This document shows positions 6,001-9,000 of a stretch of DNA of 64,000 nt, in pieces. Position 1 is the stretch's first letter. The number at the start of each line of letters is the position of its first letter. Made by a program: the position numbers. This DNA is from an uncultured Planctomycetia bacterium (GTDB lineage Bacteria; Omnitrophota; Gorgyraeia; Tantalellales; Tantalellaceae): the NCBI GenBank assembly GCA_964409365.1, contig CAYPCX010000001.1:64684-128683 (forward strand), written 5' to 3'.

Positions 6001-9000
6001 CGCAGCTTATACTTGATATATTCGCGCACAGGGCCACTTCCAACGAGGGGAAGGTCCAGGTGGAGCTTGCGCAACTCGTGTATCTTCTGCCGCGGTTGAG
6101 CGGGCAGGGCATACAGCTCTCGCGGCTCGGCGGCGGCCTTGGCACAAGGGGCCCCGGCGAGCAGAAACTGGAAGTGGACAGGAGGCGGGTACGTGAACGC
6201 ATAGATAAACTTAAAAAGCAGCTAAAAGACATAACCCGCCAGCGTGAACTGAGAAGATCGCAGAGAGAGAAGTTCTCCATGCTGACCATCGCTCTTGTGG
6301 GATATACCAATTCCGGCAAATCGACGCTCTTCAACGCCCTGACGGACGCGGGTGTTAAGGTAAGGGACCAGCTTTTCAGTACGCTGGACCCGACCGTCAG
6401 AAAAATGACGCTGCCCAACAAACAGACGGTCCTGCTTTCGGATACGGTAGGATTCCTGCATGAACTTCCCCATCACTTAATAGAAAGTTTCAAGGCCACC
6501 CTGGAGGAGGTTATAGGAGCGGATATCCTGTTCCACGTGGCTGACATGAGCGACGGCCGGATAGAAGAACAGAAGGCCGCGGTGAACACCGTGCTGGGGG
6601 AGCTCGGTGTACAGGATAAGCCCATTTTCACCGTCCTGAACAAATCGGACCTCGTGCCTGAGGAGATCGAGAGGTTCAGGCTTGAACGTAAATTCGAAAA
6701 TCCCGTTATGATATCAGCACTTAAAGGTGAAGGGCTTACGGACCTCAAGGACCTTATCGTGCGTTACATCCAGAAGGACATGGAGGATATCGAACTTTTT
6801 TTACCCCATAAATACTATTCTCTTGCCAAGCTGATCCGCGAGAGCGGAAAAGTGAGGAAAGAGGAGTACCGCGACAAGGGCCTTTTCATCAGCGCCCGTG
6901 TCCCTAAAAAGGTAAAATACTCCATTTTTAAGAAATTGAAACAGTAACCAGTTCCCAGTAACCAGTAACAAGGAAAAAGGAAAAAGTATCAAGGGTAAAG
7001 TAACCAGTGACCAGTAAACAGTTTCCAGTAGCCAGACATCTAATATCCAAGATCTAACATCTAATATCTAACACCCCTCTAGCATCTACGTCTTTCTGTT
7101 TTCTGTAACCTGTGACCTGCCACCTGAGACCTGGGACCTGACGCCTGAAACCCCTTGACAACAGGGGTGAGAGTGGTATAATTTAGCACTCGGACTTAAC
7201 GAGTGCTAAACAAGCCGGTTTTACTCATACGATAAAACATGAATATCCTGAAGAAAGAAGAAAGAAAATTCAATGTTCTCGGACATGTGGTGAGCGAATT
7301 CGTGTCTACGGCCGCGCCCGTCAGTTCGAAACTGGTGGCCCGCAGGATGGGAGGGAAGATCTCCAGCGCTACCGTGAGGAATATAATGGCCGAACTGGAG
7401 GAGCAGGGTTATATAGAACAGCCGCACACGTCCGCGGGGCGTATTCCCACCCATAACGGTTACAGGCAGTATGTGGATGCCGTCGTGGACAAGATCAGGG
7501 TAGAGAAAAGAGAAGCCGAGAGGCTCGCGAAGGAGTATACGCGCAGGATCCGCACCATGAAAGAGGTCATCGAGAGGACCTCATATCTTTTAAGCAGGGA
7601 GCTGCATAACGCCGGTATCGTCATGTGGCCCAGCGTGGAGGATTTTTATCTCAAGCACATGGAACTGGTCAAGGTCAGGGCGGAGACCGTTCTTGCCGTC
7701 ATGGTGACGATGACCAACGCCGTGAAGAATTACGTCGTCAGGCTCGACAGGGAACTGAGAAAACCGGAACTTGAACGCGTCGCCAATTTCATCAATTCCA
7801 ATTATGAGAGCGCTAATTTTTCCCGTATTTCTGAAGACCTCAGACAAACGCTGAAGACCCGGCAGGTCGGGCAGGAAGAAGAGATCGTCGGCCTTGCCGG
7901 GAACGCTTTGAGGGTGATCGATACCATCATGGAGGATAACATCGAGAACGAGATCTGCTGGGACGGGCTCGACTATTTCATGGAGAACAGGGAATTCCGC
8001 GACCTTGACGTTACAAAACGCATACTGCATATCTTTTCAGAGAGAAGGGATCTCATGCGTCTTATGAGGAGGGAGCTCCCTTACGGAGGCCTGAAGACGT
8101 ACATAGGCGAAGAATGCTCAAGCGAGATGCTGAGAGACTGCAGTCTTATCACCTGCGGGTATACCTTGCGCGACAGGGCGGTGGGGCGCATAGGTATCAT
8201 AGGCCCCACCAGGATGGATTATGAGCGCGCGCTCAGGACGGTAAGCTGCCTGGCGCGTGTGATAAGCACAAAACTTGAAGAGATAGACAGTTAGAGGAGA
8301 GAGATGACGGGCAAGGAAAAGCACAAAAAACACGAAGTCGAGATAAAAGTCCCGGAAAAAGAGTACGAAGAGCTGAAAAAAAAGGCGGAAGAGAGGGACG
8401 GGTATTACGACAAATGGCTTAAAGTGCATGCTGAGTTCGAGAATACGCGCAAACGTATGGAGAAGGAAAAAACGGAGCATATGAAGTTCGCCAACGAAGA
8501 CATCATTTTTCAGCTGTTCCCCATAGTGGACAATTTCGATATGGCCCTGGGCGCCATGGAAAAAGCGGAAGACAAAGAAGCCGTCATGGACGGCATCAGG
8601 CTGGTGCAGAAGGAATTCCACAGGATACTCGACGAGAACGGCGTGGAAAAGATAAAGACCGAAGGGGAGCGGTTCGACCCGAACGTGCACGAAGCCGTGT
8701 CGGTCGTGGAGACGGACGACGAGCCGGACGGGCTTATCCTGGAGGAGGTCCGTTCCGGTTATATGTTGAACAAGCGGCTTTTACGCCCCGCGCAGGTCAG
8801 GGTAGCAAAGAATGAATCAGAAGGCAGAGGACAGAGGACAGAGGACAGATAATCTGACTTCTGACTTTTGTTTTTCGGAACTTGTTTGGATCTGTTAAAA
8901 TCTTAAGAGCAGGAGGTAAAAAGATGGGTAAGGTAATAGGCATAGATCTCGGTACCACTAATTCATGTGTGGCGGTGATGGAAGGGAAAGAACCCAAGGT

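What the first reader, a model, noticed from the sequence alone, without database searches (positions are those of the whole stretch)
8797..8870. GACAGAG heptamer repeats run into the 3' ends of three unrelated genes, giving the same frame-independent TEDRRQR-type tail
grpE ends ...ESEGRGQRTEDR*, accD ends ...RTDDRRQKTEDR* (15211-15267), and the rmlA-like gene ends ...EKTEDRRQRTE* (23205-23249). In each case the last 10-12 codons and the stop lie inside a 7-nt tandem repeat. Three units of a 7-nt repeat span 21 nt (7 codons), so any reading frame yields the same cyclic heptapeptide (D-R-G/R-Q-R-T-E) and the tail is identical whichever frame the gene enters. The stop codon is created by a T variant unit (gacagaTGA, gacagaTAA). 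This may be a tolerated by-product of microsatellite expansion at gene ends. It could also be a selected charged tail, for example a degradation, tuning or localisation tag, or a contingency locus that varies tail length by slippage.
Basis: seen in the sequence. Interest (0 to 1): 0.65.

Follow-up and report, generated by a model that had tools for sequence, protein, structure and literature searches.

The report
Heptamer repeat arrays overrunning gene ends
In this Candidatus Omnitrophota genome the spacers between genes are packed with 7-base tandem repeats, and one stop-free repeat type (GACAGAG/A) has grown over the ends of three housekeeping genes, giving each the same short, charged, disordered tail that is most likely a tolerated by-product and not a functional tag.

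Summary
grpE, accD and a short-form rmlA each end inside a GACAGAR heptamer array, and all three read out permutations of D-R-(G/R)-Q-(R/K)-T-E. The frame independence is simple arithmetic, because 7 and 3 share no factor. The interpretation needs reframing. The window is from a Candidatus Omnitrophota genome whose spacers are saturated with period-7 arrays of about 20 different units. Many of these arrays abut, or themselves supply, the upstream stop codon. Arrays whose unit contains a stop end the ORF at once. GACAGAR has no stop in any frame, so it is translated. In about 120 orthologues per gene the conserved core ends just before the tail, and what follows is hypervariable. Related Omnitrophota carry related purine-rich arrays at the same gene ends with different copy numbers. 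One array in this strain differs by exactly one unit between two assemblies. The GrpE tail is predicted to be disordered. The same array gives the same tail on PyrG, FolP, RlmE and an LpxL-like protein in Gallionella and Accumulibacter. The array usually lies just downstream of a stop in sense orientation, often as the purine-rich 5' arm of a hairpin, as at grpE-dnaK. Heptamer repeats overlapping gene ends were already described for TAACTGA in Beggiatoaceae. Verdict: a new member of a known kind, of moderate interest.

The parts
8304..8852 (+). grpE CDS (182 aa). The conserved core ends at about residue 170 (...VRVAKN); the last ~9 codons are array-encoded.
   Evidence: NCBIfam GrpE profiles end at residues 168-176, mostly 169-172. 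In 120 orthologues the core ends ...AQVxVAKN. In the AF2 model the last strand ends at residue 169 and pLDDT is below 50 for residues 174-182.
8823..8849 (+). GACAGAG heptamer array (about 3.6-3.9 units), translated as GRGQRTEDR. It also forms the 5' arm of the grpE-dnaK spacer hairpin.
   Evidence: RNA folds
8850..8852 (+). grpE stop codon TAA, at the array boundary and in the hairpin loop.
8853..8875 (+). TCTGACT array (2.1 units) plus a U-rich run; the imperfectly complementary 3' arm, pairing with the GACAGAG array through G.U pairs.
   Evidence: TRF. MFE -22.3 kcal/mol, z -3.6 and -2.9 on the sense strand, against -13.2 kcal/mol and z -1.3 on the antisense strand. The same two-arm architecture, with more copies on both arms, is present in orthologous locus L122.
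14380..15258 (+). accD CDS (292 aa). The conserved core ends ...MDYL(T); about 13 extra residues ASRTDDRRQKTEDR follow.
   Evidence: TIGR00515 profile position 281/285 aligns to residue 279. Many orthologues stop right after DYL(S/G/K) at 278 aa.
15222..15266 (+). GACAGAR array (6.4 units: GACAGAT, GACAGAA x3, GACAGAT, GACAGAC). It contains accD's last 12 codons, and the stop TGA (15256-15258) is created by a T-variant unit.
   Evidence: No significant RNA structure here (z 0.19).
22509..23249 (+). Short-form rmlA (glucose-1-phosphate thymidylyltransferase-like, 246 aa). The conserved core ends ...LAAEK; the tail is TEDRRQRTE.
23215..23246 (+). GACAGAR array (4.6 imperfect units) forming the rmlA tail. 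It ends at the ATGA rmlA-stop/rmlB-start overlap and places a GAGGA Shine-Dalgarno-like motif 5 nt before the rmlB ATG (23246).
   Evidence: rmlB identity. The SD role is an inference from sequence.
6942..7152 (+). Context: a spacer built of successive heptamer arrays (CAGTAAC, ACATCTA, ACCTGAG). The TAA stop of ORF 5613-6947 lies in the first CAGTAAC unit.
10869..10997 (+). Context: the dnaK-dnaJ spacer. A GGTAAAA/GGAAAAA array supplies the dnaK stop (10871-10873), and a partly complementary AACCTTT array lies just upstream of dnaJ.
   Evidence: z -2.7
12334..12393 (+). Context: (AACTAAC)8.6 array, one unit longer in an independent assembly of the same strain (L184).
22395..22482 (+). Context: an inverted pair of heptamer arrays (AGTATCA / GATACTC) forming a strong hairpin upstream of rmlA.
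   Evidence: -46.3 kcal/mol, z -6.0; I1
24229..24300 (+). Context: an inverted pair of short-period arrays forming a hairpin immediately after the rmlB stop.
   Evidence: z -5.0

Best explanation
The three tails are a passive read-out of a genome-wide population of heptanucleotide simple-sequence repeats. In this Candidatus Omnitrophota genome the short intergenic spacers are largely built of tandem 7-nt arrays of many unrelated units. The arrays grow and shrink by replication slippage and press right up against the upstream coding sequence. Where an array reaches or overruns the end of a gene, the outcome depends only on its unit. Units containing TAA/TGA/TAG (CAGTAAC, GGTAAAA, AACTAAC and others) give a stop in every frame within three units, so they terminate the ORF or supply its stop. 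GACAGAG/GACAGAA has no stop in any frame, so the ribosome reads on until a variant unit or the array edge provides one. Because 7 and 3 are coprime, every entry frame yields the same cyclic heptapeptide D-R-(G/R)-Q-(R/K)-T-E. Unrelated proteins therefore acquire the same short, hydrophilic, polyampholyte tail, appended after the last conserved structural element, where it is tolerated. The array orientation is not random. GACAGAR arrays typically sit just 3' of a stop codon with the purine strand as sense, and often form the 5' arm of a purine-first hairpin. So it is always the DRGQRTE reading, and not LCPLSSV, that is captured. Shown: the arrays, their excess, the position of the tails beyond the conserved cores, their non-conservation, between-species and within-strain copy-number change, predicted disorder, and recurrence in other phyla. 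Inferred: slippage as the generator, near-neutrality of the tails, and an RNA-level role (terminator, processing or stability hairpin) for the array pairs.
For: Excess and specificity of period 7: (16 arrays against 0.2 in shuffles; periods 5, 6 and 8-10 give 0-2). Arrays abut or supply stop codons. Of 18 spacer arrays 16 carry stops on the sense strand, while 4 of 5 CDS-embedded arrays are stop-free (Fisher p=0.008; partly tautological). Tails lie beyond the family profiles. Orthologue C-termini: GrpE core ends ...VAKN followed by 0-40 hypervariable residues; AccD often stops right after ...DYL(S/G/K) at 278 aa, and none of 119 orthologues shares the tail; RmlA core ends ...LVAEK. The same site in relatives carries the same kind of array with a different copy number: L122 grpE has 7 units plus a 3.3-unit partner; L123 has about 1.5 units fused to the dnaK SD; rmlA ends in L124, L125 and L126 carry GACAGAA / AACAGAG arrays; GrpE tails come from other purine-rich heptamers in L127 and L128. 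Live slippage: exactly one extra AACTAAC unit in assembly L184, which is otherwise identical over 11.4 kb. AF2: pLDDT below 50 for residues 174-182, last strand ends at 169. Same tail on Pfam-verified PyrG, FolP, RlmE and LpxL-like genes in Gallionella and Accumulibacter. GACAGAR arrays occur in at least 119 species-level genomes of many phyla, and those loci have 238 period-7 arrays against 0-11 for other periods. Orientation: a long ORF stops within 60 nt upstream in sense orientation in 49 of 146 arrays, against 13 antisense (p=5e-6). Inverted partners are always 5'-GACAGAR...YCTGTC-3' (25:0). Hairpin at grpE-dnaK. Literature: heptamer SSR over-representation and variable, sometimes inverted, intergenic arrays (PMC4692102); TAACTGA repeats overlapping stop codons and translated at protein termini (PMC4679880).
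Against: All three GACAGAR arrays in the window overlap a CDS end, whereas in other genomes only about 11% do (16/146) and most lie just downstream of the stop. With n=3 this may be chance, or may reflect the extreme compaction here (94% coding), but some selection for translated tails is not excluded. The same unit recurs at the same gene ends in several Omnitrophota lineages. That could mean long persistence, and so constraint, and not simply neutral turnover. Only site 1 shows a significant hairpin; site 2 does not (z 0.19), and site 3 is inside an overlapping gene pair. So the hairpin-arm part of the explanation covers one of three sites. No read-level data were available, so slippage at the GACAGAR arrays themselves was not observed in this strain. 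The sense/antisense ORF analysis used crude ORF calling without gene prediction.
Confidence: 0.8

Rival explanations
1. The charged TEDRRQR-type tail is a selected functional module appended to particular proteins, for example a degradation signal, a localisation or partner-binding tag, or a solubilising polyampholyte 'bristle'.
For: The same tail is on three proteins within 15 kb. Related tails recur on GrpE and RmlA orthologues in other Omnitrophota (P0002, P0003, P0034; P0336, P0343, P0346) and on housekeeping enzymes in other phyla. All three arrays in the window are translated.
Against: The tail is not conserved. 116-119 of about 120 orthologues per gene lack it, and tails at these positions are hypervariable in length and sequence. 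In L122 the grpE ORF runs on through the loop into the other hairpin arm, giving a different end (...NEQNLTSDF). The recipients are functionally unrelated (chaperone cofactor, fatty-acid synthesis, sugar activation, CTP synthase, rRNA methylase). Most GACAGAR arrays elsewhere are untranslated, just downstream of the stop. The tail is predicted disordered. It has no resemblance to ssrA-type degrons, which end in hydrophobic residues (own knowledge).
Confidence: 0.07
2. The arrays are contingency loci: slippage changes copy number at high frequency to vary the gene products, by phase or length variation.
For: Heptanucleotide repeats can drive phase variation (NeuO AAGACTC repeats in the 5' CDS: PMC13001214). 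One array in this strain does vary by one unit. Seven-bp VNTR markers whose primers contain GGACAGAGGACAG are length-polymorphic in Coxiella burnetii (PMC1488860). A simulated +1/-2 unit change at the rmlA array would fuse rmlA in frame to rmlB.
Against: The arrays lie after the last conserved residue, so slippage at grpE and accD changes only a 3-20 aa tail and cannot switch the protein on or off. The arrays are short (3.6-6.4 units) and two are imperfect. GrpE and AccD are housekeeping proteins, not surface or host-interaction genes. All assemblies on record carry identical proteins: singleton 90% clusters on 4 or more contigs, and L001, L002 and L184 are identical at the grpE array. The allele scan of metagenome contigs found nothing.
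Confidence: 0.05
3. The arrays are primarily cis-acting RNA elements, and the tail is the price of nesting them into gene ends. Possible roles are a terminator, processing or stability hairpin at grpE-dnaK; a ribosome-binding or translational-coupling sequence for rmlB; or multi-site binding platforms for a GGA- or SD-recognising factor.
For: The sense-strand hairpin at 8815-8885 (z -3.6) is weaker on the antisense strand. It is conserved in architecture in L122, with both arms longer. Other spacers are array-armed hairpins (z -5 to -6). Across phyla the arrays show a strong sense-orientation bias just downstream of stops (49:13) and exclusive purine-first polarity of inverted pairs (25:0). 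GAGGA lies 5 nt before the rmlB ATG. In L123 the remnant ACAGAAGACAGGAGG is the dnaK SD region. In L005 the array hairpin sits exactly between a stop codon and the next RBS.
Against: There is no structure at the accD array. The GACAGAA variant lacks GGA/GAGG. No Rfam family matches. The intrinsic-terminator scan did not flag these sites. No transcript data are available. This rival is compatible with, and not exclusive of, the best explanation: the tails remain a by-product.
Confidence: 0.3
4. Artefact: mis-assembly of short repeats or a mis-called stop, with the true protein ending upstream of the array.
For: Repeats are assembly-prone; contigs L001 and L002 break inside a heptamer array at window position 6955.
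Against: The arrays are 25-45 nt, shorter than a read. There is no in-frame stop between the conserved core and the array in any of the three genes. The grpE region is base-identical in three further assemblies from different runs (L001, L002, L184). The three proteins occur identically in NCBI, JGI, ENA and Logan assemblies.
Confidence: 0.02

Closest known systems
TAACTGA heptamer direct repeats of marine Beggiatoaceae, cyanobacteria and Bacteroidetes (MacGregor 2015, PMC4679880)
   Same: Abundant intergenic heptamer direct repeats. Some overlap the stop codon of the upstream gene. The stop-free orientation is translated as a repeating heptapeptide (LSVISYQ) at the very ends of otherwise unrelated proteins such as MurG. 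The patchy cross-phylum distribution is unexplained, and the paper makes the same argument that insertions are tolerated only at protein peripheries.
   Different: The unit differs. TAACTGA has stops in all frames in the forward orientation, so it can overlap an ORF by at most 18 nt, and it lies mostly just upstream of start codons. GACAGAR is stop-free on both strands, lies mostly just downstream of stops in sense orientation, and is often paired with an inverted copy. The present genome has about 20 different units, not one dominant unit. The phylum differs (Omnitrophota).
Over-represented heptanucleotide long SSRs of prokaryotes (Mrazek et al. 2007, as cited in PMC4692102); GGGAATC / GGGGAYT arrays of Xanthomonas and Nostoc (Rehm et al. 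2015); cyanobacterial STRR heptamers
   Same: A specific excess of 7-nt units over other periods. Intergenic location. Copy number and sequence vary between closely related genomes at the same intergenic site. Inverted pairs capable of forming stem-loops occur occasionally. Polymerase slippage is the proposed generator.
   Different: Those arrays are G-rich and were studied for G-quadruplex formation, and translation into protein tails was not the focus. Here the units are diverse, mostly not G4-forming, and several are absorbed into coding sequence. STRR unit sequences (own knowledge: CCCCAGT, TTGGTCA, CAACAGT) do not match GACAGAG.
NeuO poly-heptad: AAGACTC heptanucleotide repeats in the 5' coding region of the E. 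coli K1 O-acetyltransferase gene
   Same: A heptanucleotide tandem repeat inside a CDS is translated; three units make seven codons; copy number changes by slippage (PMC13001214).
   Different: In neuO the repeat is at the 5' end, so frame matters for everything downstream, giving an on/off switch when the copy number is not divisible by 3. Repeat length also tunes enzyme activity. Here the arrays are at the extreme 3' end, and slippage can alter only the tail, except for a hypothetical rmlA-rmlB fusion.
REP/BIME-type intergenic palindromes and intrinsic-terminator hairpins at gene 3' ends
   Same: Hairpin-forming repeated sequences sit just downstream of stop codons in compact operons. This is a plausible role for the GACAGAG/TCTGACT pair at grpE-dnaK and for the other array-armed hairpins.
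   Different: The arms here are themselves tandem heptamer arrays, with variable copy number on both arms. The 5' arm can lie inside the coding sequence. There is no sequence similarity to REP, and no Rfam family matches. Function is untested.

Membership tests
Heptanucleotide long simple-sequence repeats (prokaryotic LSSR) | Head-to-tail tandem copies (at least ~3) of a 7-nt unit | tested here: met
   TRF: 3.6, 6.4 and 4.6 copies at the three sites; pattern search
Heptanucleotide long simple-sequence repeats (prokaryotic LSSR) | Genome-level excess of period 7 over other periods and over chance | tested here: met
   16 arrays against 0.2 in shuffles; periods 5, 6 and 8-10 give 0-2. In 119 other loci, 238 period-7 arrays against 0-11 for other periods.
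Heptanucleotide long simple-sequence repeats (prokaryotic LSSR) | Predominantly intergenic location | tested here: met
   18 of 23 arrays lie in the 6% of the window that is non-coding. The three GACAGAR arrays are the exceptions that overlap CDS ends.
Heptanucleotide long simple-sequence repeats (prokaryotic LSSR) | Copy-number change in whole units between strains or species | tested here: met
   One extra AACTAAC unit in L184. The grpE array has about 1.5, 3.6 and 7 units in L123, the window and L122. rmlA arrays differ.
Phase-variable contingency locus | SSR positioned (promoter or 5' CDS) so that slippage switches expression or truncates the protein | tested here: not met
   The arrays follow the last conserved residue. 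Simulated +/-1-2 units alters only the tail of GrpE and AccD.
Phase-variable contingency locus | Within-population length polymorphism at the locus | tested here: inconclusive
   No variants at the three arrays in the assemblies on record. The metagenome allele scan was empty.
Phase-variable contingency locus | Association with surface, host-interaction or restriction-modification genes | tested here: not met
   GrpE and AccD are housekeeping proteins; only rmlA is envelope-related.
Conserved C-terminal peptide tag / degron | Sequence conserved among orthologues | tested here: not met
   The tail is absent from 116-119 of about 120 orthologues per gene, and the tails are hypervariable.
Conserved C-terminal peptide tag / degron | Demonstrated effect on stability or localisation | not testable with these tools
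   This requires experiments.
TAACTGA repeat family (MacGregor 2015) | Unit TAACTGA, mostly a few nucleotides upstream of start codons | tested here: not met
   The unit is GACAGAR. The arrays lie at or just after stop codons.
Intrinsic (Rho-independent) terminator | GC-rich stem-loop followed by a U tract at a transcript end | tested here: inconclusive
   The site 1 hairpin has a U-rich 3' arm and tail, but the consensus scan did not flag it. Sites 2 and 3 lack such a hairpin. No transcript data are available.

The most novel reading that the evidence does not exclude
GACAGAR arrays may not be random microsatellites. They may be a widespread, orientation-specific 3'-end RNA module. They occur in at least 119 species-level genomes across many phyla and in 54 viral contigs. 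They sit just downstream of stop codons with the purine strand as sense (49:13). When paired, they always show purine-first polarity (25:0), building hairpins whose arm lengths change together. On this reading the unit is favoured because it is stop-free and encodes a harmless polyampholyte, which lets the element nest into coding ends in ultra-compact genomes. The tails would then mark a previously undescribed class of self-expanding terminator or stability elements, possibly spread horizontally.
Probability: 0.15. Interest if true: 0.65.

Novelty: new member of a known kind. Interest (0 to 1): 0.4.

Why it matters
This is a clean natural example of how non-coding repeat dynamics rewrite protein termini. 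A stop-free heptamer array gives unrelated proteins the same tail in any frame, and the same thing happens independently in distant phyla. For annotation and comparative work, the hypervariable, low-complexity C-termini in Omnitrophota and other heptamer-rich genomes should be read as repeat encroachment, not as domains or tags. Stop-codon positions there are evolutionarily labile. The by-products of the analysis are more interesting than the tails. They are the saturation of Omnitrophota spacers with heptamer arrays, which I did not find reported in the searched literature; the strict purine-first polarity; and the placement just downstream of stops across phyla. Together these hint at an RNA-level role, or a directional generating mechanism, for a repeat class whose function has been open since the cyanobacterial STRRs were described.

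Tried and rejected
1. Allele scan for copy-number variants of the grpE array in metagenome contigs (flank-N{10,40}-flank): 0 hits, so the source contig is apparently not in that collection.
2. Exact-protein look-ups returned only base-identical contigs for grpE (L001, L002). The 90% clusters are singletons. This is uninformative about rare alleles.
3. Walking out of the window: the right flank (L183, +9.8 kb) is a tight operon with no heptamer arrays. The left-flank contig (L184) ends inside the window. A genome-wide count in the source MAG was therefore not possible.
4. Rfam search of the whole window: no family at gathering score.
5. The consensus terminator scan did not flag the array hairpins.
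6. The RNA fold of the accD array showed no structure (z 0.19), so the hairpin-arm idea does not generalise to all three sites.
7. Literature searches for Omnitrophota plus heptamer found nothing. A search for the literal repeat string found only primer sequences, including Coxiella MLVA primers.
8. I considered CsrA-type GGA-motif binding and SD mimicry as functions of GACAGAG. The GACAGAA variant (the accD array) lacks GGA/GAGG, so these are not general.
9. I considered cyanobacterial STRR membership and rejected it on unit sequence.
10. The search of protein representatives was not used. The tail is shorter than the 30-aa minimum, and low-complexity hits would not be interpretable.
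Full report
1. THE OBSERVATION

Reading the sequence confirms the finding. grpE (8304-8852) ends ...ESEGRGQRTEDR*. accD (14380-15258) ends ...RTDDRRQKTEDR*. A short-form rmlA (22509-23249) ends ...EKTEDRRQRTE* (gene identities by NCBIfam). Tandem Repeats Finder reports period-7 arrays at 8825-8849 (3.6 copies), 15222-15266 (6.4 copies) and 23215-23246 (4.6 copies). 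GACAGANGACAGA with up to one mismatch occurs 11 times in the window, only at these three sites and only on the + strand; 0.18 matches are expected.

Frame independence is exact arithmetic. All three frames of (GACAGAG)n read cyclic DRGQRTE, and (GACAGAA)n reads DRRQKTE.

Two details in the finding are wrong. Only the accD stop is made by a T-variant unit inside the array. The grpE TAA lies at the array edge. The rmlA TGA is the ATGA overlap with the rmlB start codon.

The window is 94% coding, and its roughly 4 kb of spacers are saturated with heptamer arrays of about 20 different units. These include CAGTAAC, ACATCTA, ACCTGAG, GGTAAAA, AACCTTT, TAATGAG, AACTAAC, AGTATCA, TCAGGTC, GATGTTA, CCTGAAA, ACTTGTG, AGTATCG, AAAGGAA and ATAAAGG. 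Under a stringent criterion there are 16 period-7 arrays, against 0.2 in shuffles and 0-2 for periods 5, 6 and 8-10.

The arrays press against the coding sequence:
- The TAA of ORF 5613-6947 is inside the first CAGTAAC unit.
- The dnaK TAA is inside the first GGTAAAA unit.
- The ACTTGTG array fills the space exactly from a stop codon to the next RBS.

Sixteen of 18 spacer arrays carry stop codons on the sense strand, whereas four of five arrays inside CDS are stop-free. This is partly a tautology, but it is also the point. Whether an array that touches a gene end is 'spacer' or 'tail' depends on whether its unit contains a stop. GACAGAR has none on either strand.

3. WHERE THE PROTEINS REALLY END

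The organism is a Candidatus Omnitrophota bacterium (names of homologues). I inspected about 120 orthologues for each gene.
- GrpE: the conserved core ends ...RPAQVxVAKN, followed by 0-40 hypervariable residues.
- AccD: many orthologues stop directly after ...DYL(S/G/K) at 278 aa, and none of 119 shares the window's 13-residue tail.
- RmlA: the core ends ...LVAEK, followed by 0-20 variable residues.

Family profiles end before the tails. An AlphaFold2 model of GrpE places the last strand at residues 163-169 and gives pLDDT below 50 for residues 174-182. The tails are therefore lineage-specific additions beyond the fold.

4. EVOLUTIONARY DYNAMICS

Relatives carry the same kind of array at the same site with different copy numbers.
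- L122 (GrpE 79% identical) has seven GACAGAR units followed by 3.3 TGACTTC units. There the grpE ORF runs through into the second array.
- L123 (81% identical) has only ACAGAAGACAGGAGG, which is the dnaK Shine-Dalgarno region, with the stop overlapping the dnaK start.
- rmlA ends in L124, L125 and L126 carry GACAGAA or AACAGAG arrays directly after the conserved GCG GAA AA(A) codons.
- Other GrpE tails derive from GACAACR and AGCARAR arrays.

Within this strain, an independent assembly (L184) is base-identical to the window from position 1078 to 12522 except for exactly one additional AACTAAC unit in the longest array. That is direct evidence of unit-wise slippage.

The three GACAGAR arrays themselves show no variants in any assembly on record. 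An allele scan of metagenome contigs found nothing.

5. BEYOND THIS GENOME

The contigs come from Accumulibacter, Gallionella, Lysobacterales, Pirellulales, Acidobacteriota, Desulfobacterota, Atribacteria, Omnitrophota and others. It also occurs in 54 viral contigs. The genome loci are themselves rich in other heptamer arrays: 238 period-7 arrays against 0-11 for other periods.

Pfam-verified housekeeping genes there end in the same tail:
- Gallionella PyrG: ...AALQRTDDRGQRTE*
- Accumulibacter FolP: ...NQRTEDRGQRTVQ*
- RlmE: ...RRQRTEDRGQSAR*
- an LpxL-like acyltransferase: ...GAGQRTEDRR*

Two regularities emerged.
- A long ORF ends within 60 nt upstream of the array in sense orientation in 49 of 146 cases, against 13 in antisense (p=5e-6). 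About 11% of arrays overlap the ORF end.
- When an inverted partner array is present, the order is always 5'-GACAGAR...YCTGTC-3' (25:0; 7:1 in viral contigs). Any gene abutting such a hairpin therefore meets the purine arm in sense.

This explains why the captured reading is always DRGQRTE and not LCPLSSV.

6. THE HAIRPIN AT SITE 1

The grpE array pairs, through G.U pairs, with the following TCTGACT array and U-run. The MFE is -22.3 kcal/mol with z of -3.6 and -2.9; the antisense strand gives only -13.2 kcal/mol and z -1.3. L122 has the same two-arm hairpin with more copies on both arms (z -4.1).

Other spacers in the window are array-armed hairpins: 22395-22482 (z -6.0), 24224-24310 (z -5.0) and 10865-11003 (z -2.7). 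The accD array has no such structure (z 0.19). The rmlA array sits in an overlapping gene pair and places GAGGA 5 nt before the rmlB ATG.

An RNA-level role as a terminator, processing site, stability element or SD is therefore plausible for some arrays. It is untested and does not apply uniformly to all three sites. No Rfam family matches.

7. MECHANISM

The most likely mechanism is this. Heptanucleotide SSR arrays are generated and resized by slippage. They occupy 3'-proximal spacers and encroach on gene ends. Stop-containing units terminate the ORF. The stop-free GACAGAR unit is translated into a short, disordered polyampholyte tail that is tolerated because it lies after the last structural element.

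Simulated slippage of one or two units changes only the tail of GrpE (179-202 aa) and AccD (292-312 aa). At rmlA, +1 or -2 units would fuse rmlA to rmlB in frame.

The selected-tag and contingency-locus readings are not supported. There is no conservation. Slippage cannot give an on/off effect. Two of the three genes are housekeeping, and no variants are on record. Assembly or annotation artefact is excluded by identical independent assemblies and the absence of any upstream in-frame stop.

8. COMPARISON WITH WHAT IS KNOWN

[quoted passage not shown] 2015, PMC4692102).
- MacGregor 2015 (PMC4679880) described TAACTGA repeats that overlap upstream stop codons, and whose stop-free orientation is translated as LSVISYQ at the termini of unrelated proteins. 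That paper makes the same tolerance argument.
- NeuO shows a translated heptanucleotide repeat acting as a phase switch at a 5' end (PMC13001214).
- Two 7-bp VNTR markers of Coxiella burnetii have primers containing GGACAGAGGACAG and are length-polymorphic (PMC1488860).

The phenomenon is therefore a new member of a known kind. What appears unreported in the searched literature is the heptamer saturation of Omnitrophota spacers, and the cross-phylum GACAGAR family with its strict polarity and its placement just downstream of stops.

9. VERDICT

Confidence in the by-product explanation is about 0.8. Interest is moderate (0.4), carried mainly by the contextual findings and not by the tails themselves.

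Noticed in passing
window 12334-12393 vs L184 (ENA ERZ27256770): An independent assembly of the same strain is base-identical over 11.4 kb except for exactly one extra AACTAAC unit in this 8.6-copy array. This is direct evidence of heptamer slippage polymorphism.
   Followed up: yes
window 754-1077 vs L184 1-324: The first ~320 nt of L184 differ from the window at 45 positions (~14%), while the remaining 11.4 kb are identical. This is either a recombination tract in the 3' part of ORF 13-1356 or a chimeric contig end.
   Followed up: no
window 22395-22482, 24224-24310, 10865-11003, 4654-4688: Intergenic spacers contain inverted pairs of heptamer (or 12-14 nt) arrays that fold into long hairpins (z -6.0, -5.0 and -2.7; the last region is a palindromic AGTCGAC array). 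These array-armed hairpins appear to be the general architecture of spacers here.
   Followed up: partly
window 24412-24445 (inside rmlD 24318-25229): An in-frame (TCAGGTC)n array lies inside the dTDP-4-dehydrorhamnose reductase gene. It encodes ...IRSQVSGRRSQV..., an ~8-residue insertion relative to PDB 1vl0 just before the conserved DIT motif.
   Followed up: partly
window 25208-25262, 26615-26669, 29500-29754: A different, REP-like palindromic element (TTCTGGGGACACGTCTG - 21 nt - CAGACATGTCCCCAGAA) recurs at three gene 3' ends. The first copy overlaps the end of rmlD. At 29500-29732 its left half is amplified as a 49-nt tandem repeat (4.8 copies).
   Followed up: no
window 12126-12268: A 67-nt tandem repeat (2.1 copies, 93% identical) starts at the dnaJ stop codon. 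It is followed by TAATGAG and AACTAAC arrays that are partly complementary to it.
   Followed up: no
L003-L121 (genome contigs) and L129-L182 (viral contigs): GACAGAR arrays occur in at least 119 species-level genomes of many phyla and in 54 viral contigs. Inverted partners are always arranged 5'-GACAGAR...YCTGTC-3' (25:0). Arrays lie preferentially within 60 nt downstream of a long ORF in sense orientation (49:13).
   Followed up: partly
L027 3830-4065; L023 1819-1968 and L072 2749-2890: In a betaproteobacterial MAG, an inverted GACAGAR array pair brackets what looks like a tRNA gene (read by eye, not run through ARAGORN). In two Accumulibacter MAGs the pair brackets a conserved ~100-nt element. 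Both suggest stems that enclose RNA units.
   Followed up: no
L094 around 4888-4921 (Gemmataceae MAG): A Ser/Thr protein kinase ORF runs into a GACAGAA array immediately after the HRDLKPSNILL catalytic loop (Pkinase profile position 135/263) and then terminates. This is either a disrupted gene or an in-frame insertion with a frame error.
   Followed up: no
L125 3760-3972 (Omnitrophota GCA_043822245): Downstream of an rmlA that also ends in a GACAGAR-type tail there are at least 6 tandem copies of a ~32-33-nt unit, GAAAAAGCAGACAAAAGCTTTCCTTTTTTT, which is terminator-like (hairpin plus T-run).
   Followed up: no
GrpE orthologues P0006-P0108: Many Omnitrophota GrpE proteins end in a short motif, GG(E/N/D)NG or GEDNG, after a variable acidic linker. 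The window's GrpE lacks it, the array tail standing in its place. The motif may be a real, unrecognised C-terminal feature of GrpE in this phylum.
   Followed up: no
window 23215-23249: Simulated slippage by +1 or -2 units would put rmlA in frame with rmlB and create an RmlA-RmlB fusion protein. The array also provides a GAGGA Shine-Dalgarno-like motif 5 nt upstream of the rmlB ATG.
   Followed up: partly
PMC1488860 Table 3 (Coxiella burnetii MLVA): The primers of two polymorphic 7-bp VNTR markers (ms24, ms33) contain GGACAGAGGACAG. This suggests that GACAGAG-type arrays exist in a cultivable pathogen and vary in length there.
   Followed up: no
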